A stretch of 19,329 nt of DNA, from the IMG/VR virus record IMGVR_UViG_2802429248_000011, positions 1 through 19,329 of that record. One strand, given 5' to 3'. Under the pieces are notes generated by a model that saw nothing but the letters and a program-made list of their open reading frames with translations, had not been told where the DNA came from and made no database searches. Below, one piece after another: positions 923 to 19,329 of this stretch (the stretch's first letter is position 1; each line of letters begins with the position of its first letter). A program made the position numbers and the translations under genes. The stretch is from a virus. Its lineage: Duplodnaviria > Heunggongvirae > Uroviricota > Caudoviricetes.

Positions 923-1472
923 TCAGACTTGAATACCCTTATCGAATCCCGGTAATAAAAACTGTCCCTGTCTCTCCAGGCGTTTCAGCTTTGCAAGCAA
1001 TTGAGGTTTTTTCGTTCTTCCCCAGCGATTGAGCAGCCGGCCAGACATACTGGCGACATCCTTCTCTTTCATATACTCCAGCATTATGGCGTTGCGTTCT
1101 GCTTCATAACTTTCGCTGTACTTACGGAGTTCTGCTGACATCCAGTTAAAGGCATTTATATAGGCCTCTTTAACGGCGTCGGCTTTTGCGCCATTAAATC
1201 CCATGACCAGCATAACGAAGCCACTAAAGTCCATGCGGTAGTAAATCTGTTTCTTGTCGAAAATCCCTAATTCATTGATTTTTTTCGGCAACGCAAAAAT
1301 GCGCGCTCCGGAAATCTTCAGAGCAATGACAATTTTTCAGCGCCCTCAATACGTCCGCGTGACGCTTACCAAAAGCCTTTGCGATCTGGAAGGTGTCAGT
1401 TACCGGTTGACCTTCTGCTGCGGTAACTAACTGGCGAAAGTCAAAGTCATGATTCACAATTAATTCATTCAT
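923..1472 (-). pseudogene. Rha-family phage regulatory protein, split by a frameshift at an A7 run
   Basis: The N-terminal part runs from the ATG at 1472 to the TGA at 1274-1272: MNELIVNHDFDFRQLVTAAEGQPVTDTFQIAKAFGKRHADVLRALKN...HFCVAEKNQ*. The Rha-like continuation is in the neighbouring frame (923..1291): ..KKINELGIFDKKQIYYRMDFSGFVMLVMGFNGAKADAVKEAYINAFNWM... The junction sits on a 7-nt homopolymer at 1279-1285. Removing one A gives a single ORF of about 182 codons. Confidence 0.7.
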
Positions 1473-1622
1473 GGCGTTACCTGCTACTTCGAAATGAACC
1501 TTTGCCGCACAGGAAACCAGCCCACCGAGGCTCGCCAGCACTAACTGGTATCCTCAAAGGCCCATTCCAAAGGGTCAGGTTCGGTGGTTATTGTGCGCTG
1601 CGGTGCGCGGTGAAATACCTAT

Positions 1623-2837: not shown

Positions 2838-3056
2838 ATCCTCACCCCGATGTACACGGATGGTGCAATATGTTTGAAAATATCGGAGTCTACGGGGTAG
2901 TTTTTACAGCACACGTTGTTCTCAACGGCGCTAAAAAAACATACACATTAAAAATGTGGTTAATTATTTTGAAAGAAAATCATATATTAATTAATAATAC
3001 GAGAAATGTTTTCATATTTAGTGTACTGTATACGGCCATTTATACAGGAAAAGCCT

Positions 3057-3227
3057 ATGTCAGAACGTAAAGACTCAAAATCACGCCGTAATTATCTCGT
3101 TAAATGTTCCTGCCCAAACTGCACCCAAGAGTCAGAACACAGTTTTTCAAGAGTACAAAAAGGTGCCCTTTTGATCTGCCCTCATTGCAACAAAGTATTC
3201 CAGACAAATCTTAAAGCTGTAGCCTGA
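3057..3227 (+). CDS. 56-aa zinc-ribbon miniprotein (YnfU-like)
   Basis: MSERKDSKSRRNYLVKCSCPNCTQESEHSFSRVQKGALLICPHCNKVFQTNLKAVA contains CxC-x2-C ... CPHC. An AGGAAA SD lies upstream of the internal ATG at 3057. The upstream 17 codons of the tracked ORF look noncoding. The resemblance to Qin YnfU is from memory only. Confidence 0.65.
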   Translation: MSERKDSKSRRNYLVKCSCPNCTQESEHSFSRVQKGALLICPHCNKVFQTNLKAVA

Positions 3228-3286
3228 TTGATTTTATTCGCAACAAGTATTTTTTATATTTTAATAATATATTTAAAGCAGATAAT

Positions 3287-3312
3287 AAAAAACCCGCCTG
3301 AGCGGGTTTAAT
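3287..3312. terminator. Bidirectional intrinsic terminator
   Basis: aaaaaacccgc-ctga-gcgggttta. On the minus strand the stem is followed by ttttttatt (strong). On the plus strand it is followed by tttaatatt (weaker). Confidence 0.7.
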
Positions 3313-3590
3313 ATTGTGGTGCTTTTTGTGAGAGTCATCCACTTACGCACTTTGTTTTGCTATGCCAGCAGTTAGCTTCTGCTGTAAAACTATTCATGCA
3401 GCAAACCTGCACTTCACCACAATGGTTAGCATACTTTTCCTGATTAAGTTATTACCAAATATGCTGGCCATTGTTTCATGTATTGGACCGCCTTACTCTT
3501 TATTAAAGAGATCCAATATTCACCACTCTGTCTGTATCTCCACTCAGGCATCAGCCTTCTTCGTTATCGTATACAGACAAACTATGAATT

Positions 3591-3806
3591 TTAATCATTA
3601 ATGATGACATTTGCTGCTGCAGGACCTTTAGCACCACTCTCTACAGAGAAGGTAACCTTTTGACCTTCAAATAAGGTTCGATAATTATCATTCTGAATCG
3701 CAGAAAAATGCACAAACACATCTTTACTACCATCAACAGGAGAAATAAAGCCGAAACCTTTATCAGCGTTAAACCATTTTACTAAACCAGTCATTTTATT
3801 TGACAT
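3591..3806 (-). CDS. cspB: Cold-shock protein CspB
   Basis: [71 protein letters not shown] carries the RNP1/RNP2 motifs and is near-identical to K-12 CspB from memory. Confidence 0.95.
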
Positions 3807-4002
3807 TCTACATTCCTTAACTTGAGCCTTTCGGCATAAATGGTTTGTATAACAGAAACGACTTCGTACTTAATTGGAGAGACTCAAAGAAGGAATAAGT
3901 GAATAACACCTGAAATGAGAACTGCTTTAGTAAACTACTTCGTATATCGTCTGTTCTTCAAACCGACGCAATCATTAACGCATAGTTGAACATATGAAGC
4001 AA
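3807..4002 (-). promoter_or_regulatory. cspB promoter and long cspA-type 5' UTR with cold box
   Basis: The minus strand reads TTGCTT (4002-3997), 17 nt, GTTAAT (3979-3974), then cggtttgaagaacagacgat (3965-3946). This parallels the cspA cold box cggtttgacgtacagac. The gccgaaaggc element lies near the SD. The leader is about 160 nt. Confidence 0.6.
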
Positions 4003-4105
4003 TGTTTATTTTAGACATCCAGCCATCTTCAACCCCATCAAAAAACTATAGCTTTCTTCAGGAACGTGTGTATAGTGCGCCAAGTTATCAGTATTAAGGA
4101 ATTTT

Positions 4106-4318
4106 TTGTCCCGTAAAATGACAGGAATTGTCAAAACCTTTGACTACAAAAGCGGCAAAGGTCTTATCATACCATCCGATGGCCGTATCGATGTCCAGCT
4201 GCACGTTTCTGCTCTCAATCTCCGCGATGCAGAAGAAATTACCACAGGATTACGCGTGGAATTTTGCCGAATCAATGGTCTACGTGGACCTTCAGCTGCC
4301 AATGTTTATCTTTCATGA
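4106..4318 (+). CDS. cspF: CspF/CspH-family cold-shock-domain protein (TTG start)
   Basis: [80 protein letters not shown] lies 5 nt upstream of the TTG. It is divergent from cspB, as in Qin. I cannot tell cspF from cspH without an alignment. Confidence 0.85.
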
Positions 4319-13755: not shown

Positions 13756-13822
13756 ATAATAACAACAGGAAAAGCGATATTCAACGTTAAACCTAGAACA
13801 TTTATCGGAAAGCCGATAGACT
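13756..13822. promoter_or_regulatory. Divergent PR/PRM-type promoters with three 16-bp operator-like sites
   Basis: The minus-strand promoter is TTGAAT (13784-13779), 17 nt, TATTAT (13761-13756). The plus-strand candidate is TAGAAC (13794-13799), 17 nt, TAGACT (13817-13822). A perfect palindrome TATCGGAAAGCCGATA lies at 13803-13818. Two related sites, aacaggaaaagcgata (13764-13779) and caacgttaaacctaga (13782-13797), each match 11/16 to one of the clearer operator sites. Confidence 0.65.
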
Positions 13823-13852: not shown

Positions 13853-14545
13853 ATGACATTTTCAGAACGACTTGATTTAGCTATGCGCAACGCAAAATTT
13901 ACGCAAGGTAGGCTGGCCAAAGAAGTGGGTATGGCTCAGTCCAGTGTCAATCAACTACTTAACAAAGCCAACGGTTCCAGAAAAACAGTCGAAATAGCAA
14001 AAGTTTTGGGCGTTAACCCGGAATGGCTCGCATCGGGTGTTGGCCCAATGGAAATCGTGACCTCTGCAGACTCACACCAAATACGTAACATTTCTGAAGA
14101 TTGGGTTACTGATTCGTATGTCGTGGATGTTTTAGACATCAGATATAGTTGCGGACCTGGCAGTTATAACTCTGATTTTCCTGACATTGTCAGATCTATA
14201 GCGATAGAACCAGGATACGCATCAAGAGTTTTTGGCGGCAGACCAGCATCAGCAATCAAAGCAATAAACGCCCACGGCGACAGTATGAAAGGCACAATAG
14301 ACCCTGAAGACTTGGTATTTGTAGATGTATCAGTTCGCACATTTAATGGTGATGGTATATACGCCTTTACATACTCTGGAACATCGCACATCAAAAGACT
14401 TCAAAAAATCAAAGATACTCTAACGGTGATATCTGACAACCCAGCTTACAAGGATTGGGCTATCGAACCGGAAGACTTTGAACAACTTCACATTGACGGA
14501 AAAGTAATTGTCAGTTGGCCTATGACACTACACCGTTTTGCATAA
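13853..14545 (+). CDS. cI: CI-type prophage repressor (N-terminal HTH, C-terminal S24 LexA-like autopeptidase)
   Basis: The HTH is FTQGRLAKEVGMAQSSVNQLLN. The S24 motifs are HGDSMKG (Ser nucleophile) and HIKRLQK (Lys). A hinge Cys-Gly (YSCGPG) is a possible cleavage site. A GGAGG SD is present. Confidence 0.92.
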   Translation: MTFSERLDLAMRNAKFTQGRLAKEVGMAQSSVNQLLNKANGSRKTVEIAKVLGVNPEWLASGVGPMEIVTSADSHQIRNISEDWVTDSYVVDVLDIRYSCGPGSYNSDFPDIVRSIAIEPGYASRVFGGRPASAIKAINAHGDSMKGTIDPEDLVFVDVSVRTFNGDGIYAFTYSGTSHIKRLQKIKDTLTVISDNPAYKDWAIEPEDFEQLHIDGKVIVSWPMTLHRFA

Positions 14546-14563: not shown

Positions 14564-14589
14564 GCCCACTCTTAAGTGGGCTTTTTTTT
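14564..14589 (+). terminator. Intrinsic terminator after cI
   Basis: gcccact-ctta-agtgggc followed by T8. Confidence 0.85.
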
Positions 14590-14595
14590 GGAAAA

Positions 14596-14638
14596 AATCG
14601 ATAAACCGATTGACAGGCGAAATCGGTAAACCTATTAT
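14596..14638 (+). promoter_or_regulatory. PL-type early promoter with two overlapping operators
   Basis: The promoter is TTGACA (14610-14615), 17 nt, TATTAT (14633-14638). The operators are AATCGATAAACCGATT (14596-14611) and AATCGGTAAACCTATT (14621-14636). They are related to the palindrome at 13803-13818. Confidence 0.8.
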
Positions 14639-14687
14639 TATGGCATAGGTATCGAACTCACCAAAGCAATTATAGAGGATGAGAAAA

Positions 14688-15185
14688 ATGTCATCGTATA
14701 TGGGGTTACCAACAAATCAGCACGATGCTCTTGAGAATATTCAGCTCTTAGTCGGGGCTGGTGCACTACTGTATAGCAGCAATAACCCTGAGTTAATTGA
14801 ACTTGCCAGCTCCATCCTGGCTGTAACTCAAAAATATAGCCTCACAGCGTCGCGTTTATGCAAACAAAATTTAGCTATTAATTCCCAGAATCGGATTAGC
14901 ACTCAACGCGAAGCCTGCGGCTTAACAACCGCCGAACTCGCCAGGCTGCTCGATCTCGATGAAGAAATTATCATCCAGTGGGAGAGCGGAGAGTATGAAC
15001 CAACCATCAGCATGCTTATCCCACTGGCAAATATTCTTGGCTGCGATCCGATGTGGCTGTTAACTGGCGAGGTTACTCCTCCGGAGCAACCAAAAAGTGA
15101 GGAGCAGCAACACCATGACGCATCTCAACAAGTTTGCTCCTTATCTCGCGAAGCTCTTCTACGGAAGAACCAATACCAATGGTGA
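14688..15185 (+). CDS. XRE-family HTH protein with unknown ~75-aa N-terminal domain; first gene of the PL-type operon
   Basis: The HTH is ISTQREACGLTTAELARLLDLDEEIIIQWESGEYEPTISMLIPLANILGCDPMWLLTGE. An AGAGG SD lies 9 nt upstream of the ATG at 14688. The tracked ATG at 14679 abuts the SD. The last ~36 codons are low-complexity and overlap the convergent 86-aa gene. Confidence 0.75.
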   Translation: MSSYMGLPTNQHDALENIQLLVGAGALLYSSNNPELIELASSILAVTQKYSLTASRLCKQNLAINSQNRISTQREACGLTTAELARLLDLDEEIIIQWESGEYEPTISMLIPLANILGCDPMWLLTGEVTPPEQPKSEEQQHHDASQQVCSLSREALLRKNQYQW

Positions 15186-15333
15186 CATAATCACCGCTTC
15201 GCCCCTCAAGGTACATGCGAACATTTTTATCAATCATTGCGGAAACAGTCTCAATATGAAAACACTTCTGAGACTCGCTATATAGCAGAACATATAAGTC
15301 AGCTGAGGAAGCCGTGAAAAAGTTCGAAAACAT
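15073..15333 (-). CDS. Hypothetical 86-aa protein encoded antisense within the PL-type operon
   Basis: MFSNFFTASSADLYVLLYSESQKCFHIETVSAMIDKNVRMYLEGRSGDYVTIGIGSSVEELREIRSKLVEMRHGVAAPHFLVAPEE. A GGAGA SD lies 6 nt upstream of the ATG. A perfect TATAAT on the minus strand lies at 15365-15360. The gene fills the only sizeable gap on the plus strand, and its sequence looks globular. Confidence 0.6.
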   Translation of the reverse strand: MFSNFFTASSADLYVLLYSESQKCFHIETVSAMIDKNVRMYLEGRSGDYVTIGIGSSVEELREIRSKLVEMRHGVAAPHFLVAPEE

Positions 15334-15679
15334 AACTGCTCTCCATGTTGATGACTTTGATTATACAAACCCGGAACTTCTCCCGGAGGTTGTAAAGGCA
15401 ATAGATGTTGCCGATATAGTGATTAGAGGAAAGAGAATCGTCAAAAACAGGCTCGCATGCACTTCAGGAGCAATGACAGAAACAACCTCACAACAAGATG
15501 ATTATGAAGGCATTTGTCTGGAGCCGGACTCATTTGCGGTAAATGTTTATCATTTATTGCATGCAACACAGGTATTACATATGTCAAGTAATCACGAAAC
15601 AAAAACACTTGGCAGCGAAATTCTGAATTTTGCATGTGAATATGCAAAAGCTGCTGCCGAAAAAGAATTAGCACAATAA
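15314..15679 (+). CDS. Hypothetical acidic 121-aa protein (GTG start)
   Basis: A GAGGA SD lies 4 nt upstream of the GTG. There is no in-frame ATG upstream, and the frame opens at 15272. Function unknown. Confidence 0.6.
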   Translation: MKKFENITALHVDDFDYTNPELLPEVVKAIDVADIVIRGKRIVKNRLACTSGAMTETTSQQDDYEGICLEPDSFAVNVYHLLHATQVLHMSSNHETKTLGSEILNFACEYAKAAAEKELAQ

Positions 15680-15757
15680 CAATAAATATTCCCTGAATGT
15701 TTATTACGGTTTTATCGCCGGGGATTGTTGCAACCTTTATTCGCAGGTGATTATGTT

Positions 15758-15871
15758 ATGACTTTCCTGAAACATAAGGCATCGTATAAAACTGCCTGCC
15801 TCATTGTACAACATGGAGATTCTTATCTTCATATAGCCAACCTGTATTTGCGCAAAGCATATGGGAGATAA
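15758..15871 (+). CDS. Possible 37-aa ORF
   Basis: An AGGTGA SD lies 7 nt upstream of the ATG. The product is MTFLKHKASYKTACLIVQHGDSYLHIANLYLRKAYGR. It ends just before the start of the next gene. Confidence 0.3.
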   Translation: MTFLKHKASYKTACLIVQHGDSYLHIANLYLRKAYGR

Positions 15872-15875
15872 GTCA

Positions 15876-16064
15876 ATGGAAGAAAAACAACAAAACATAA
15901 CACATAAAAAAGTAAGAGTGTTGCTAACCATTGAAAATGGGAAGGTAATTCACTCAAAACATCTGTTGGATAATGAATTTGTTGGCTGCATGGATACATT
16001 TTTGTTGGTGGTAAAAAGAGCGGGTTACACTATTATTCCACCAGCAAAGGAGCAAACATTATGA
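15876..16064 (+). CDS. Hypothetical 62-aa protein
   Basis: The start MEEKQQ at 15876 has a GGGAGA SD 7 nt upstream. The stop overlaps the next start (ATGA). Confidence 0.6.
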   Translation: MEEKQQNITHKKVRVLLTIENGKVIHSKHLLDNEFVGCMDTFLLVVKRAGYTIIPPAKEQTL

Positions 16065-16642
16065 ATCATTCAGAGTTCCGACCAGAAGTTACGCCACACG
16101 GTATAAAAATTGGCAATACAACCATAGATTATGCCGAGGCCGTACAGCGACTTAATGATGGTGAATACGATAATCCAAATTCTCAAGGTTTAAGAATTAT
16201 GCAGTGTATTGCTGAAGCCGATGATGCCGGATTACTGGGACGATTTTCAGTCGATATGAAAGTTGCTCAATGGCGATGGCTGTATGTGACAACATTTATA
16301 AATGAAGAGGAAGACAAGAACGGCACCATTGATATCCCTAACGATAATGGAACTACAGATCGCGCAGTTATTTACAAGGGTAAACATGGTTGCCTGAGTA
16401 TCTACCCAGGGCCACTTCGCATTGCCCTGCAAAACCATGTCGAATGGAGATTCATTGAAAAATATGGCGAAGCTGAAGGCATGGGGCGAGTTCTGTTTCT
16501 CTATCAAAAAATGCTCATCGCAGATCCTGATAATGGCTTCATTGTCTCTGCTATGGGACGAGAAGGGCTTGAACTTCTTCTGGATGAAATGATTCACGAT
16601 CTGAATACTCATGGTATGCCAGAAACACCATTGGCACATTAA
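16061..16642 (+). CDS. Hypothetical acidic 193-aa protein
   Basis: This is the longest ORF of the early-left block. It has an ATGA overlap with the upstream gene. I recognise no motif. Confidence 0.7.
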   Translation: MNHSEFRPEVTPHGIKIGNTTIDYAEAVQRLNDGEYDNPNSQGLRIMQCIAEADDAGLLGRFSVDMKVAQWRWLYVTTFINEEEDKNGTIDIPNDNGTTDRAVIYKGKHGCLSIYPGPLRIALQNHVEWRFIEKYGEAEGMGRVLFLYQKMLIADPDNGFIVSAMGREGLELLLDEMIHDLNTHGMPETPLAH

Positions 16643-16644
16643 AC

Positions 16645-16926
16645 ATGTCAAATCAGAATAAAATTAATGTATTTCAGGTTGAATCAAAACATAAAACACC
16701 TGTGATAAAACACGTTCGCCGCCATACACTCATCTATACGCCAGAAGAGTTTATGGCAATTCCAATGATAAAGAAGTTTATTCGTGATAATCCCGATCAC
16801 ATTGCTATAGATAAACATAACGGAGAAATAATGTTATCACGCGAACTTGCCGAAATTTACTGTAACGTGAATAACGGTAAAAAATTGAAAAAGGCAATCC
16901 GAAAAAAATCAGGAGTAACAAAATGA
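16645..16926 (+). CDS. Hypothetical basic 93-aa protein
   Basis: It starts 2 nt after the previous stop. The C-terminus is Lys-rich (KKLKKAIRKKSGVTK). The stop overlaps the next start (ATGA). Confidence 0.65.
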   Translation: MSNQNKINVFQVESKHKTPVIKHVRRHTLIYTPEEFMAIPMIKKFIRDNPDHIAIDKHNGEIMLSRELAEIYCNVNNGKKLKKAIRKKSGVTK

Positions 16927-17291
16927 ATAGCATCGAGACACAATGTTCCTCATCTGAAGTTATGAACTATGACCCGAATCTGACGTTGTACGGACGCATG
17001 GCAAAACAAACTGTTCTATTAACTTTCGGGCTATGGGAATACCGCGAAACATTCGAAGTTTCTGTCGGCGGCAATCTGACCGGACTGGATGTTATCAGTT
17101 GCGCCATTGAAAGCCTGTACGCAACGCTGCCTTATGAAGAAGTCGAGGATGAGCGCGATATCATAGCCACCATTAATATCGGCGGCATGGAATGCAAGGA
17201 TGAAAACCTGAACGGAGAACTCTGGCTTGCCGGGATGCTTATCTCGGCAGAAATCATCAGTATTGAACCCGCTACAAACATACGACTCTGA
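16923..17291 (+). CDS. Hypothetical strongly acidic 122-aa protein
   Basis: It is coupled to the upstream gene. There are many Asp/Glu residues (...YEEVEDERDII...ECKDENLNGE...) and few basic residues. Confidence 0.65.
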   Translation: MNSIETQCSSSEVMNYDPNLTLYGRMAKQTVLLTFGLWEYRETFEVSVGGNLTGLDVISCAIESLYATLPYEEVEDERDIIATINIGGMECKDENLNGELWLAGMLISAEIISIEPATNIRL

Positions 17292-17322
17292 AGTTCTCAC
17301 AACTCAGGGAGCAGGAGAAAAA

Positions 17323-17565
17323 ATGTTCGCTTTGATTAATCAGGGGCAACTGTATACCGATAGTGCTGGCTACCCGATAAAAATTATTCGCTGCATAAAC
17401 AACACTGTGTTGTACAGAAGAATGGATGGGCGAACACAGTCGGTAAAAATAAACGATTTTAATGAACTGTTTGAACGAATCGATCACCAGGAATACCGAC
17501 AAATTCTGGCAGAAACAGAGCAGGAAGCTCATCTGAAAAAATTACGGGTCATGAAAAGGAAGTAA
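17323..17565 (+). CDS. Hypothetical 80-aa protein (possibly DUF4222-like)
   Basis: The start MFALINQGQLYTDSAGYPIKIIRCINNTVLYRRMDG has a CAGGAGA SD 5 nt upstream. The 32 extra codons in the track overlap the previous gene. The family assignment is from memory only. Confidence 0.6.
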   Translation: MFALINQGQLYTDSAGYPIKIIRCINNTVLYRRMDGRTQSVKINDFNELFERIDHQEYRQILAETEQEAHLKKLRVMKRK

Positions 17566-17568
17566 AGA

Positions 17569-17715
17569 ATGAATAAAGCGTTTGAGCTATGGGTACGCCA
17601 GCGTTACGGCAATCGCTATGACCTGACGCGAGATGTTGACGGTTTCCACTGTCGTGAAATTGTGAAACGAATGTTTGAAGTGTGGTGTTACTGTCGTGGA
17701 CTGAATGTTGTGTGA
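17569..17715 (+). CDS. Possible 48-aa protein
   Basis: My translation is MNKAFELWVRQRYGNRYDLTRDVDGFHCREIVKRMFEVWCYCRGLNVV. An AGGAAG SD is present. The ORF exactly fills the gap before xis. Confidence 0.45.
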   Translation: MNKAFELWVRQRYGNRYDLTRDVDGFHCREIVKRMFEVWCYCRGLNVV

Positions 17716-17723
17716 GGTAATGC

Positions 17724-17960
17724 ATGGGCAATGTGATTCAACTGGCTCCCAATGAATGGGTTTGTGAAAGCGTTCTTATCGCAATTACCGGGCTCAAACC
17801 AGGCACAATTCTTCGGGCCCGGAAAGAATGCTGGATGGTTGGAAGAGAGTATATTCACGTATCACCAGACGGTAATCCAAAGCCTTCCAGCGAATGTATG
17901 TATAACAGAAAAGCAATAGATGCCTGGGTCGCTTCAATGAAAAACAAACAACCTGGGTGA
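17724..17960 (+). CDS. xis: Excisionase (XisR / DUF1233-type)
   Basis: MGNVIQLAPNEWVCESVLIAITGLKPGTILRARKECWMVGREYIHVSPDGNPKPSSECMYN... resembles Rac XisR (YdaQ) from memory. It lies immediately upstream of int. Confidence 0.85.
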   Translation: MGNVIQLAPNEWVCESVLIAITGLKPGTILRARKECWMVGREYIHVSPDGNPKPSSECMYNRKAIDAWVASMKNKQPG

Positions 17961-18015
17961 TTTAATGCCATGAAATATGTAAGCTCGTATCGCTCTTGGG
18001 CGTCTGGAGGTATGA

Positions 18016-19329
18016 ATGGATAAAGTTAAATATCCAACAGGCGTCGAAAACCACGGTGGCACATTGCGCATCTGGTTTAATTTTAAAGGTAAACGTGTCA
18101 GGGAAAATCTTGGTGTCCCTGACACTGCCAAGAACAGGAAGATTGCCGGAGAACTGCGGACATCGGTATGTTTTGCCATCCGCACAGGAAGCTTTGATTA
18201 TGCTGCACAGTTCCCTGACTCCCCTAACCTTCAGGCTTTTGGGGTAAGTAAAAAAGAAATTACGGTGAAAGAACTTGAAGAAAAGTGGCTGGATCTGAAA
18301 CGAATGGAAATCTCTGCAAATGCATTCAATCGTTATGAATCCGTTGCAAGAACGATGGTCCCGAAAATTGGAGGTAGCAGACTGGTGTCAACGGTGACCA
18401 AAGAGGAATTGCTGTATATCAGGAAAGATTTGCTGACCGGATACCAAAATCCAACAAAAGGTAAGGCTCCGGTAAAAGGGCGAAGCGTTATCACAGTAAA
18501 TTATTACATGACGACAATCGCTGGAATGTTTCAGTTTGCTGCAGATCACGGTTACTTAGAAGCAAATCCCTTCCAGGGAATTAAGCCTCTTAAAAGAGCC
18601 AGGGCAGAGCCAGATCCGCTAACTCGTGACGAATTTATTCGCCTGATAGATGCTTGCCGACATCAGCAGACGAAAAACCTGTGGTCATTGGCTGTGTACA
18701 CAGGAATGCGTCACGGTGAACTGGTCTCCCTGGCCTGGGAAGATATCGATCTGAAAGCAGGAACTATTACTATCAGGCGCAATTATACGAAACTCGGTGA
18801 GTTCACTCTACCTAAAACTGAAGCAAGTACAAACAGGGTTGTGCATCTTATCCAGCCCGCTATCAGTGTCCTGAAAAATCAGGCTGAAATGACAAGACTG
18901 GGTAAGCAGCACAACATCAAGGTTCAACTACGTGAATATGGACGTTCAGTGAATCATGAATGTACTTTCGTGTTTAACCCCCAGGTGGTTAGAAAAAGCA
19001 AACAGGTCGGTTTTATCTACAAGGTAGATTCTATTGGCGACTCATGGGAAACAGCCATTAAGCGTGCGGGCATCAGGCACCGGAAAGCATACCAGTCACG
19101 ACACACTTATGCGTGCTGGTCATTATCTGCCGGAGCAAACCCAAGCTTCATTGCCAGCCAGATGGGCCATGCAAGTGCCCAGATGGTGTTCAATGTATAC
19201 GGAGCATGGATGACTGACAGTAATGCAGAACAGATCGCAATGCTGAATCAGAAGCTGGCAGATTATGTCCCAATGATGTCCCATGGTCACCAAAGTGACA
19301 CAAGAGACTTATTAAAATCAGTGGGTTAG
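18016..19329 (+). CDS. int: Tyrosine integrase, Rac IntR-like
   Basis: A GGAGG SD lies 5 nt upstream of the ATG. Catalytic-domain motifs are present (TGMRHGELVSLAWEDI; YQSRHTYACW; GHASAQMVFNVYGAW with the Tyr). The N-terminus MDKVKYPTGVENHGGTLRIWFNFKGKRVRE resembles IntR. The stop is the last codon of the window, so the att site is outside it. Confidence 0.95.
   Translation: MDKVKYPTGVENHGGTLRIWFNFKGKRVRENLGVPDTAKNRKIAGELRTSVCFAIRTGSFDYAAQFPDSPNLQAFGVSKKEITVKELEEKWLDLKRMEISANAFNRYESVARTMVPKIGGSRLVSTVTKEELLYIRKDLLTGYQNPTKGKAPVKGRSVITVNYYMTTIAGMFQFAADHGYLEANPFQGIKPLKRARAEPDPLTRDEFIRLIDACRHQQTKNLWSLAVYTGMRHGELVSLAWEDIDLKAGTITIRRNYTKLGEFTLPKTEASTNRVVHLIQPAISVLKNQAEMTRLGKQHNIKVQLREYGRSVNHECTFVFNPQVVRKSKQVGFIYKVDSIGDSWETAIKRAGIRHRKAYQSRHTYACWSLSAGANPSFIASQMGHASAQMVFNVYGAWMTDSNAEQIAMLNQKLADYVPMMSHGHQSDTRDLLKSVG

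What the first reader, a model, noticed from the sequence alone, without database searches (positions are those of the whole stretch)
15314..17715. Recombination/kil/cIII region replaced by a compact operon of nine orphan small genes, several strongly acidic
What the sequence shows:
- Lambda and Rac carry exo/bet/gam or recET, kil and cIII between the immunity region and xis. Here there are only short ORFs of 37 to 193 aa.
- They are joined by ATGA overlaps or gaps of 2-8 nt: 16061, 16645, 16923, 17569 and 17724.
- The block is AT-rich relative to the replication genes.
- The 121-, 193- and 122-aa products have large net negative charge. The 93-aa product is Lys-rich.
- I recognise none of them except a possible DUF4222-like 80-aa protein.

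Inference: early-left accessory genes of temperate phages are a known home for anti-restriction and anti-defence proteins and for host-takeover factors. Some of these are acidic DNA mimics. This block is a plausible reservoir of such functions, or a multi-gene system. The apparent absence of a Gam or recombinase equivalent is itself notable.
Basis: partly seen in the sequence, partly recalled or inferred. Interest (0 to 1): 0.6.

Follow-up and report, generated by a model that had tools for sequence, protein, structure and literature searches.

The report
Mosaic early-left accessory genes of phiP27-like prophage
This is the ordinary, already catalogued "dark matter" stretch of small early genes that sits between the repressor and the excision genes of a phiP27-like E. 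coli prophage: the genes are real, none has a tested function, and they do not form one system.

Summary
Between the repressor and xis/int lies a tightly packed, AT-rich, same-strand run of small genes, and three of them are the most acidic proteins in the window.

The genes are not orphans and not a unit.
- The block is about 94% identical to ORFs L03-L10 of the Stx2e phage phiP27, to a yecE-integrated Stx2a phage, and to prophages in E. coli genomes.
- Parts of it occur in 681 of 5426 complete E. coli genomes; at least 80% of it occurs in 36.
- Seven products match PHROG families. Two are Pfam DUFs: DUF5406 and DUF4222, the domain of the EHEC regulator RgdR.
- Sub-blocks have very different prevalence (83, 204 and 592 genomes) and different neighbours in other genera.

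The complete phiP27 genome carries no annotated recombination module either. DUF5406 relatives in Pseudomonas prophages sit next to Erf/Rad52-like modules, so "replacement" is not the right description.

No defence, anti-defence or solved-structure relative was found. Confident models of the 193-aa protein and of DUF5406 match no known fold.

New details:
- a real antisense 86-aa gene at the left edge;
- a probably missed 37-aa gene;
- a 68-aa protein paralogous to the N-terminal domain of the adjacent HTH regulator.

Function remains untested. DUF5406, whose acidity is conserved across the family, is the best anti-defence candidate.

The parts
14564..14581 (+). Terminator-like hairpin followed by a T-run, just downstream of the cI-type repressor gene (13853-14545)
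   Evidence: 7-bp stem with 5 GC pairs, then TTTTTTTT
14610..14638 (+). pL-like sigma-70 promoter, TTGACA-17-TATTAT (11 of 12 matches). Operator-like repeats ATCGATAAACCGAT (14597-14610) and ATCGGTAAACCTAT (14622-14635) flank it and recur in the cI-cro intergenic region.
   Evidence: Repressor control is an inference.
14679..15185 (+). First gene of the early-left operon: a 168-aa HTH_3 regulator. It matches DicA-like and 'CII-like regulator' PHROG families. It has an N-terminal non-HTH domain.
15073..15333 (-). Antisense 86-aa gene (phrog_6104). It is convergent with the HTH gene (113-nt overlap) and divergent from the next gene.
   Evidence: E 5.9e-49.: against phage ASU11, substitutions by codon position 6/3/20 and dN/dS 0.10.
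15473..15679 (+). 68-aa acidic protein (net -8, pI 4.58; phrog_4587). It is a paralogue of the N-terminal domain of the adjacent HTH regulator. The longer 121-aa form from GTG 15314 (phiP27 L08, phrog_5451) is weakly supported.
15758..15871 (+). 37-aa basic ORF, probably a real small gene that PGAP missed. It is annotated in phage PhiR49_2.
   Evidence: intact and the same length in relatives of about 73% identity, with third-position-biased changes..
15861..16064 (+). 67-aa ORF (phrog_340). The likelier start is ATG 15876, giving 62 aa, 4 nt after the stop of the 37-aa ORF. Its stop overlaps the next start (ATGA).
16061..16642 (+). 193-aa acidic protein (phrog_1515). There is no Pfam family. 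The AlphaFold model is confident and has no fold match. The family has 133 clusters at 50% identity.
16645..16926 (+). 93-aa Lys-rich basic protein from a rare family. It has no PHROG or Pfam hit.
16923..17291 (+). 122-aa DUF5406 protein (phrog_3409), net -14, pI 4.05. Acidity is conserved across the family.
17323..17565 (+). 80-aa DUF4222 protein (phrog_285). It shares the Pfam domain with the EHEC regulator RgdR but is not its orthologue.
17569..17715 (+). 48-aa basic protein (phrog_3871). In many genera it lies immediately upstream of the DUF1233 excisionase gene.
17724..17960 (+). Excisionase (DUF1233)
18016..19329 (+). Tyrosine integrase. In relatives it is followed by the yecE (DUF72) attachment site.

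Best explanation
The block is the accessory part of the early-left (pL-type) operon of a phiP27-like, yecE-integrating lambdoid prophage.

**How it is transcribed (inferred).** Transcription most likely starts at the near-consensus promoter at 14610-14638. This promoter lies just past the repressor gene's terminator and is flanked by operator-like repeats. No terminator-like site follows on this strand, so transcription can run through an HTH regulator gene and eight small genes into xis and int. The genes would therefore be silent in the lysogen and expressed early after infection or induction.

**What it is (shown).** It is a mosaic of independently exchanged single-gene cassettes, not a system. 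Each cassette is kept by purifying selection. Tight spacing and ATGA overlaps reflect phage genome compaction and translational coupling.

**How the products work (inferred, untested).** Each small protein probably acts alone by binding a host or phage macromolecule.
- The 68-aa protein is a free-standing copy of the N-terminal domain of the neighbouring HTH regulator. It probably modulates that regulator by forming mixed oligomers with it.
- The DUF4222 protein is a small basic RgdR-type protein. It probably acts as a low-specificity DNA-associated co-regulator of host genes.
- The conserved-acidic DUF5406 protein and the 193-aa protein probably sequester basic or DNA-binding host proteins. 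Host nucleases or defence proteins are possible targets.

The absence of a recombination module is seen in every relative examined, not only at this locus.
For: **Identity and context**
- The block is 94-95% identical to E. coli yecE prophages and to phiP27 L03-L10.
- The same architecture occurs in a yecE-integrated Stx2a phage.

**Operon**
- The promoter matches 11 of 12 consensus positions, after a terminator-like hairpin.
- Operator-like repeats are shared with the cI-cro intergenic region.
- No plus-strand terminator-like site is found from 14582 to 18100.

**The genes are real**
- dN/dS is 0.03-0.36 for every gene.

**Mosaic, not a unit**
- o67+o193 are in 83 E. coli genomes, DUF5406 in 204, and DUF4222+48-aa in 592. 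At least 80% of the whole block is in 36.
- Among the 21 sources compared (the window and 20 loci, from about a dozen genera), DUF5406, DUF4222 and the 93-aa family each accompany o193 in only two.
- An SPFH gene is inserted in phiP27 and in many E. coli prophages.
- PhiR49_2 continues with Ea22/EaA genes.
- In Leclercia and Budvicia, o193 lies upstream of a P4-type primase.
- In Pseudomonas prophages, DUF5406 sits beside Erf/SSB or Rad52-like/SSB modules.

**No recombination module**
- The phiP27 complete genome has none annotated.
- tblastn with lambda proteins finds none in the window or its relatives.

**The 68-aa protein and the regulator**
- phrog_4587 hits o121 residues 57-121 (1.8e-28) and HTH168 residues 3-58 (3.5e-7).
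- The CII-like phrog_4836 hits o121 residues 69-114.
- o121 residues 69-115 are 45% identical to the N-terminal part of the HTH gene in L003, E 2e-7.

**DUF4222**
- The Pfam hit is 2.3e-15.
- RgdR is a prophage-borne, non-specific DNA-binding regulator (PMC3378721).

**Acidity of DUF5406**
- It is conserved across the family: median net charge -13 and median pI 4.18 in 29 members.
Against: - No product has an experimentally known function. All the mechanistic steps for individual proteins are inference.
- The o80-RgdR relationship is visible only at profile level. The pairwise E-value is 0.17, and the RGD motif aligns to QGQ.
- The pairwise similarity between the 68-aa protein and the HTH N-terminal domain within this window is weak: 33% over 39 aa, E 0.002.
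- The promoter, operators and read-through are consensus matches only. The antisense 86-aa gene inside the operon could interfere with read-through.
- Translational coupling of neighbouring genes (o67-o193, o93-o122) could still reflect local functional pairs in this lineage.
Confidence: 0.6

Rival explanations
1. Anti-defence reservoir. One or more products, above all the acidic DUF5406 protein and the 193-aa protein, are DNA mimics or other inhibitors of host restriction, RecBCD or newer defence systems. They would be expressed early to protect incoming or replicating phage DNA, and might compensate for the missing Gam.
For: - The early-left position is the slot that carries ral and gam in lambda.
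- DUF5406 acidity is conserved across the family: median net charge -13, pI 4.18. Its calculated pI equals that of T7 Ocr.
- DUF5406 occurs in early operons of prophages from Enterobacteria to Pseudomonas. tblastn also finds it on Enterococcus and Lactobacillus plasmids, which suggests a broadly useful function.
- The o193 model is confident and its fold matches nothing known, as is common for anti-defence proteins.
Against: - There is no sequence or fold similarity to any solved protein, including any solved DNA mimic.
- Charge density is about half that of Ocr.
- Plasmid-borne copies are all on non-mobilizable replicons. None lies on a mobilizable plasmid, where leading-region anti-defence genes would be expected.
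- DUF5406 coexists with full recombination modules elsewhere, so it is not a Gam substitute by position.
- No literature exists on DUF5406.
Confidence: 0.2
2. Functional analogue of the lambda/Stx-phage exo-xis (ea) region. The small proteins tune the lysis-lysogeny decision, prophage induction efficiency and host physiology, rather than countering defences.
For: - The position next to xis, and the non-essential small ORFs, match the exo-xis region described in PMC3824215 and PMC8614690.
- In PhiR49_2 the same left half of the block is followed by Ea22/EaA genes.
- The first gene of the operon is a CII-like/DicA-like regulator, and the 68-aa gene is a paralogue of its N-terminal domain.
- The characterised DUF4222 member, RgdR, has pleiotropic regulatory effects.
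Against: - There is no sequence homology to ea8.5, ea22, orf60a, orf61 or orf63.
- Effects on lysogeny are untested.
- This rival overlaps with the best explanation rather than excluding it.
Confidence: 0.35
3. A single multi-gene system, that is, one co-functioning operon such as a defence, exclusion or toxin-antitoxin module.
For: - Gene spacing is tight, with ATGA overlaps.
- The gene order is conserved among E. coli yecE prophages.
Against: - Sub-blocks have very different prevalence.
- Partners change completely in other genera.
- Indels of whole genes are tolerated, for example SPFH and the 93-aa gene.
- There are no PADLOC hits.
Confidence: 0.03

Closest known systems
Phage phiP27 (Stx2e-converting) ORFs L03-L10, and the equivalent region of yecE-integrated Stx2a phages
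   Same: - DNA identity is about 94% over most of the block.
- The order is the same: repressor, HTH regulator, small genes, xis, int.
- Relatives are integrated next to yecE/DUF72. The window itself ends inside int.
- phiP27 has no annotated recombination module.
   Different: - The window lacks the SPFH/Band_7 lipoprotein gene and its 62-aa neighbour, which lie between the 93-aa slot and DUF5406 in phiP27 and in most E. coli copies.
- The window carries the rare 93-aa gene, which phiP27 lacks.
- Its HTH regulator and immunity genes are a different allele.
Lambda/Stx-phage exo-xis (ea) region: ea8.5, ea22, orf60a, orf61, orf63
   Same: - Both are runs of small, non-essential early-left genes next to xis.
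- The characterised exo-xis genes modulate lysogenisation and induction (PMC3824215, PMC8614690).
- Ea22/EaA genes follow the same left half-block in PhiR49_2.
   Different: - There is no detectable sequence homology.
- There is no adjacent exo/bet/gam.
- The protein families are different (PHROG 1515, 3409, 285, 3871, 340, 4587).
RgdR (ECs1581), the DUF4222 regulator of type III secretion and motility in EHEC prophage CP-933C/Sp7
   Same: - Both carry the same Pfam domain: 2.3e-15 for o80 and 2.1e-23 for RgdR.
- Both are small basic prophage proteins in an early operon.
   Different: - The pairwise E-value is 0.17.
- The RGD motif is replaced by QGQ.
- o80 is 80 aa; RgdR is 99 aa.
- RgdR sits in a P4-like element upstream of a primase.
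Acidic DNA-mimic anti-restriction proteins (T7 Ocr, ArdA)
   Same: DUF5406 is small, has a low calculated pI (4.05, the same as Ocr) and is encoded by an early phage gene.
   Different: - Charge density is half that of Ocr: -0.115 against -0.24 per residue.
sieB inside the lambda pL operon
   Same: Both are genes on the opposite strand, embedded in the early-left operon. The 86-aa gene at 15073-15333 has this arrangement.
   Different: There is no sequence similarity, the 86-aa product is much smaller, and no function is known.

Membership tests
Pfam DUF5406 (PF17400) | Score above the Pfam gathering threshold over the full domain | tested here: met
   76.6 bits against a cutoff of 25, profile positions 1-116 of 116.: the family-invariant Y16, D17, P18, N19, W38, G50, N51 and others are present.
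Pfam DUF4222 (PF13973) / RgdR family | DUF4222 domain above the gathering threshold | tested here: met
   56.3 bits against a cutoff of 27
Pfam DUF4222 (PF13973) / RgdR family | Orthology to RgdR, including the functionally important RGD motif (residue 20) | tested here: not met
   BLASTP E 0.17, and RGD aligns with QGQ. PMC3378721 shows that residue 20 matters.
Pfam DUF4222 (PF13973) / RgdR family | Regulatory activity on host genes and non-specific DNA binding | not testable with these tools
   Needs expression and EMSA experiments
Lambda Red/Gam/Kil/CIII early-left module | Homologues of exo, bet, gam, kil or cIII between the immunity region and xis | tested here: not met
   no tblastn hit at E<=0.01 in the window or in the related loci.: no recombinase Pfam domain in the window ORFs scanned (the helicase, loader and replication-initiator ORFs are identified only by analogy to the annotated relative).: none annotated in complete phiP27.
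Lambda exo-xis (ea) genes | Sequence homology to ea8.5, ea22, orf60a, orf61 or orf63 | tested here: not met
   Only PhiR49_2, a relative, has an Ea22 homologue.
Lambda exo-xis (ea) genes | Small early-left genes adjacent to xis that are not needed for the core life cycle | tested here: inconclusive
   Position and size fit. Whole-gene indels among relatives suggest the genes are dispensable. Essentiality is not testable here.
DNA-mimic anti-restriction proteins (Ocr/ArdA type) | Very high negative charge density arranged to imitate the DNA backbone | tested here: inconclusive
   DUF5406 has -0.115 per residue against -0.24 for Ocr, and its acidity is conserved in the family.
DNA-mimic anti-restriction proteins (Ocr/ArdA type) | Sequence or fold relationship to a known mimic | tested here: not met
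DNA-mimic anti-restriction proteins (Ocr/ArdA type) | Inhibition of restriction or defence in vivo | not testable with these tools
   Needs phage-rescue assays
Known anti-phage defence systems (PADLOC) | HMM hit to a defence-system component | tested here: not met
   none for the eight block proteins scanned (the 37-aa product was not scanned). Only generic HTH hits for the upstream regulator.
Co-functioning multi-gene system | Genes co-occur as a unit across lineages | tested here: not met
   prevalence is 83, 204 and 592 genomes. Partners differ in other genera.

The most novel reading that the evidence does not exclude
DUF5406, possibly together with the 193-aa PHROG-1515 protein, founds a new family of acidic early-phage inhibitors with a previously unseen fold. 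In this reading it blocks a host nuclease or defence protein and acts as a Gam/Ocr-like protector in phages that lack Gam. Separately, the 68-aa protein would be a dedicated decoy of the N-terminal domain of the neighbouring HTH regulator, forming a tandem regulator/anti-regulator switch.
Probability: 0.15. Interest if true: 0.6.

Novelty: already known. Interest (0 to 1): 0.27.

Why it matters
As it stands, this is a routine example of the uncharacterised accessory genes carried by temperate phages, in a region whose sequence is already deposited for phage phiP27.

Its practical value is as a short, well-delimited candidate list.
- The same cassettes occur in Stx2e and Stx2a phages and in hundreds of E. 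coli genomes.
- One domain family present here, DUF4222, already has a member (RgdR) that rewires virulence gene expression.
- Two others, DUF5406 and PHROG 1515, fold confidently into structures with no known relative.

If any of them turned out to be an anti-defence or host-takeover factor, it would be widely relevant to Stx phage biology. Nothing here makes a long-standing question newly testable.

Tried and rejected
- **Family scans.** Pfam, NCBIfam and PADLOC scans of all products gave only DUF5406, DUF4222 and DUF1233 (xis). There were no defence hits.
- **PDB sequence searches.** Single sequences (o122, o193, m86, o80, o93, o67) and family profiles (A1, A3) gave nothing below E 0.08.
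- **Exhaustive profile search for o193.** It found 133 clusters at 50% identity, nearly all stand-alone proteins of about 190-215 aa. The few longer members and the distant members have no Pfam domain, so domain fusions give no clue.
- **Zinc binding by the 48-aa protein.** Rejected. Only one Cys is broadly conserved.
- **Link to plasmid leading regions.** Rejected. All plasmid hits are on non-mobilizable replicons; the roughly 37-41 kb Klebsiella ones may be phage-like (not checked).
- **Literature.** There are no papers on DUF5406, PF17400 or PF13973. DUF4222 leads only to RgdR.
- **A convincing sigma-70 promoter for the antisense 86-aa gene.** Not found. There is only a perfect TATAAT about 20 nt upstream of its ATG, with no -35 element.
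- **Surface-charge geometry of the models.** Not computable, because model coordinates are not exposed.


Full report
**1. What is in the sequence**

The window is the early and regulatory half of a lambdoid prophage. On the minus strand, in order, lie:
- lysis genes;
- a Qin-like segment with YnfU and two cold-shock genes;
- a Q-type antiterminator, DUF968, a DnaB-type helicase, a DnaC-like loader and an HTH_36 replication initiator;
- Ash/Rha regulators and a cro-like gene.

On the plus strand a 230-aa repressor (annotated LexA-family in an E. coli relative with a 100% identical product; the S24 peptidase domain is on record for the repressors of related loci) is followed by the region in question, then xis and int.

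After the repressor stop codon (14545) come two signals:
- a hairpin with a T-run at 14564-14581;
- a near-consensus promoter, TTGACA-17-TATTAT, at 14610-14638.

The promoter's -35 element is bracketed by ATCGATAAACCGAT and ATCGGTAAACCTAT. Related motifs recur in the repressor-cro intergenic region. I read these as pL and its operators. This is inference from consensus matches.

No terminator-like site follows on the plus strand up to 18100.

**2. Checking the observation**

- ATGA overlaps at 16061 and 16923;
- gaps of 2, 3 and 8 nt at 16645, 17569 and 17724.

GC content per gene is 33-47%, against about 53-56% for the replication genes.

| Product | Net charge | pI |
|---|---|---|
| 121 aa | -8 | 4.97 |
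| 193 aa | -13 | 4.85 |
| 122 aa | -14 | 4.05 |
| 93 aa | +10 | 10.0 |

These acidic products are the most acidic proteins encoded anywhere in the window.

Every ORF shows purifying selection against diverged relatives, with dN/dS 0.03-0.36 and an excess of third-position changes.

Three corrections are needed.
- **A minus-strand gene.** An 86-aa gene at 15073-15333 matches phrog_6104 (E 5.9e-49). Against phage ASU11 its substitutions fall 6/3/20 by codon position, with dN/dS 0.10. It overlaps the 3' end of the upstream HTH gene by 113 nt. An opposite-strand gene inside the early-left operon is also seen in lambda, where it is sieB.
- **The 121-aa ORF is probably shorter.** Its first 53 codons show no coding signature: pooled changes are 3/9/7 and dN/dS is 0.14-1.2. 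The last 68 codons do show one, with dN/dS 0.03-0.27. PGAP calls the 68-aa form. Relatives exist in which a 66-aa gene directly abuts the HTH gene.
- **A probable missed gene.** A 37-aa ORF at 15758-15871 is intact and the same length in relatives of about 73% identity. Its changes are third-position biased: 10/5/17, 9/4/16 and 7/4/15. [quoted passage not shown] It ends 4 nt before the better-supported ATG (15876) of the next gene.

The range therefore holds eight plus-strand genes and one antisense gene at its left edge.

**3. The genes are not orphans, and the region is already known**

- The block is 94-95% identical to prophages in E. coli genomes. Parts of it occur in 681 of 5426 complete genomes, and at least 80% of it occurs in 36.
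- It is about 94% identical to ORFs L03-L10 of the Stx2e phage phiP27, which are annotated "unknown".
- A yecE-integrated Stx2a phage has the same architecture.
- Seven of the eight plus-strand products tested, and also the antisense gene, match PHROG families of unknown function: 5451/4587, 340, 1515, 3409, 285, 3871 and 6104.
- Two are Pfam families: DUF5406 (76.6 bits) and DUF4222 (56.3 bits).
- Only the 93-aa protein is truly rare, with 11 clusters among 5.8 billion proteins.

**4. The block is not a unit**

Prevalence among the 5426 complete E. coli genomes differs several-fold between sub-blocks:

| Sub-block | Genomes |
|---|---|
| o67 + o193 | 83 |
| DUF5406 | 204 |
| DUF4222 + 48-aa gene | 592 (up to six places per genome) |

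I compared 21 sources carrying an o193 relative: the window and 20 loci, from about a dozen genera.
- DUF5406, DUF4222 and the 93-aa family each accompany o193 in only two.
- The 48-aa gene recurs in ten, usually just before xis.
- An o67-like gene recurs in eight, but not always next to o193.

Neighbours change with the host and the element.
- Citrobacter yecE prophages keep the order repressor, small genes, xis, int. The small genes there are almost all different and have no Pfam annotation.
- phiP27 and most E. coli copies have an SPFH/Band_7 gene inserted before DUF5406, and phiP27 lacks the 93-aa gene.
- In PhiR49_2 the left half of the block is followed by Ea22/EaA genes.
- In Leclercia and Budvicia, o193 sits with Bro-N and Ash genes upstream of a Zn-ribbon/Toprim/DUF927 primase and SSB. 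That context is a P4-like element.

**5. The missing recombination genes**

- tblastn with lambda Exo, Bet, Gam, Kil, CIII, Ral, Ea8.5, Ea22, orf60a, orf61, orf63, N and SieB finds nothing in the window or its relatives. The exceptions are int, and Ea22 in PhiR49_2.
- The complete 42.6-kb phiP27 genome has no annotated recombinase or Gam.
- The Pfam scans run on window ORFs found no recombinase domain. The helicase, loader and replication-initiator ORFs were identified by analogy to the annotated E. coli relative rather than scanned here.

The absence is therefore real, but every relative examined shows it, not only this locus. DUF5406 relatives in Pseudomonas and Stutzerimonas prophages lie in early-left operons that do contain Erf+SSB or Rad52-like+Gp157+SSB modules. 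These cassettes coexist with recombination genes rather than replacing them.

**6. Searching for function**

- PADLOC gives no defence hit for any block protein scanned. NCBIfam gives nothing meaningful.
- Sequence and profile searches of the PDB are negative.
- An exhaustive profile search finds 133 clusters (at 50% identity) of o193 relatives. Almost all are stand-alone proteins of about 190-215 aa, and the ten longer or distant members scanned have no Pfam domain.
- DUF5406 acidity is a family trait: median net charge -13 and median pI 4.18 across 29 members. Its charge density, -0.115 per residue, is about half that of T7 Ocr at -0.24.
- Plasmid-borne homologues of DUF5406 and o193 are all on non-mobilizable replicons. 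None lies on a mobilizable plasmid, where leading-region anti-defence genes would be expected.
- No paper mentions DUF5406.
- DUF4222 has one characterised member, RgdR (ECs1581). It is a 99-aa basic prophage protein that activates LEE1 and type III secretion, represses motility and binds DNA non-specifically (PMC3378721).
- The o80 protein shares the domain with RgdR but is not an orthologue. The BLASTP E-value is 0.17, and RGD aligns with QGQ.

**7. A small new finding**

The C-terminal 65 residues of the 121/68-aa protein are paralogous to the N-terminal, non-HTH domain of the adjacent 168-aa regulator. Four results support this.
- phrog_4587 matches both: 1.8e-28 for the 121-aa product and 3.5e-7 for the regulator.
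- The "CII-like regulator" phrog_4836 matches the small protein at 3.3e-4.
- tblastn gives 45% identity to the N-terminal part of the HTH gene in another prophage, E 2e-7.
- The pairwise hit within the window is weak but present, E 0.002.

A free-standing copy of a regulator's N-terminal domain, encoded immediately downstream of that regulator, suggests a modulator that forms mixed oligomers with it. This is inference only.

**8. Best explanation and verdict**

The region is the accessory segment of a repressor-controlled early-left operon in a phiP27-like prophage. It is a mosaic of independently exchanged, individually selected single-gene cassettes.

Its closest conceptual relative is the lambda/Stx-phage exo-xis (ea) region, whose genes modulate lysogenisation and induction (PMC3824215, PMC8614690). 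No sequence homology to that region is detectable.

The most likely mode of action is that each small protein binds a host or phage macromolecule.
- The DUF4222 protein and the 68-aa protein would act on regulators.
- The acidic DUF5406 and 193-aa proteins would sequester basic or DNA-binding targets.

An anti-defence role for DUF5406 or o193 remains possible, at about 0.15-0.2, but nothing found here supports it beyond position and charge. A multi-gene system is effectively excluded.

The finding is real but ordinary. At the sequence level it is already catalogued, so interest is low to moderate.

Noticed in passing
window 15073-15333 (-): An 86-aa gene lies on the strand opposite to the early-left operon. 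It matches phrog_6104 and has dN/dS 0.10 against phage ASU11. It overlaps the 3' end of the HTH regulator gene by 113 nt. PGAP does not annotate it in the closest E. coli genome. The arrangement resembles sieB inside lambda's pL operon.
   Followed up: partly
window 15758-15871 (+): A 37-aa basic ORF is conserved intact, with third-position-biased changes, in relatives of about 73% identity. [quoted passage not shown] It is probably a missed small gene, translationally coupled to the next gene.
   Followed up: yes
window 15473-15679 and 14679-14850: The 68-aa acidic protein is a paralogue of the N-terminal non-HTH domain of the adjacent 168-aa HTH regulator. Together they may form a regulator/anti-regulator pair.
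   Followed up: partly
window 14597-14635 and 13785-13818: Operator-like repeats (ATCGATAAACCGAT, ATCGGTAAACCTAT, CGTTAAACCTA, and the palindrome TATCGGAAAGCCGATA) are shared between the pL-like promoter and the repressor-cro intergenic region.
   Followed up: partly
window 16929-16962: This is the breakpoint where phiP27 and most E. coli relatives carry an extra ~1.1 kb, a 62-aa gene plus an SPFH/Band_7 lipoprotein gene. It falls within the variable first codons of the DUF5406 gene.
   Followed up: partly
L018 3766-12330; L021; L016; L019: In Leclercia, Budvicia and Symbiopectobacterium, the 193-aa family lies with Bro-N and Ash genes directly upstream of a Zn-ribbon/Toprim/DUF927 primase and SSB. 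This is a different, P4-like type of mobile element.
   Followed up: partly
L011 (record labelled Chryseobacterium sp. 18061): A genome labelled as a Bacteroidota species carries an enterobacterial-type prophage segment. It has an o193 relative at 46% identity and the 48-aa gene at 75%. The assembly is probably contaminated or mislabelled.
   Followed up: no
window 3006-4318: An AT-rich segment (36-41% GC) between the Q antiterminator and the lysis genes carries a YnfU-family zinc-ribbon gene and two cold-shock-domain genes on opposite strands. This resembles the Qin prophage of E. coli K-12 (comparison from memory).
   Followed up: no
window 923-1541 (-): Two adjacent short ORFs of 89 and 122 aa each carry part of a Phage_pRha domain, and the second also carries ORF11CD3. 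They look like one Rha-type antirepressor gene split by a frameshift.
   Followed up: no
(H63-H65): tblastn finds DUF5406 relatives at 29-45% identity on large plasmids of Enterococcus durans and Lactobacillus johnsonii. The family therefore reaches well beyond Proteobacteria.
   Followed up: no
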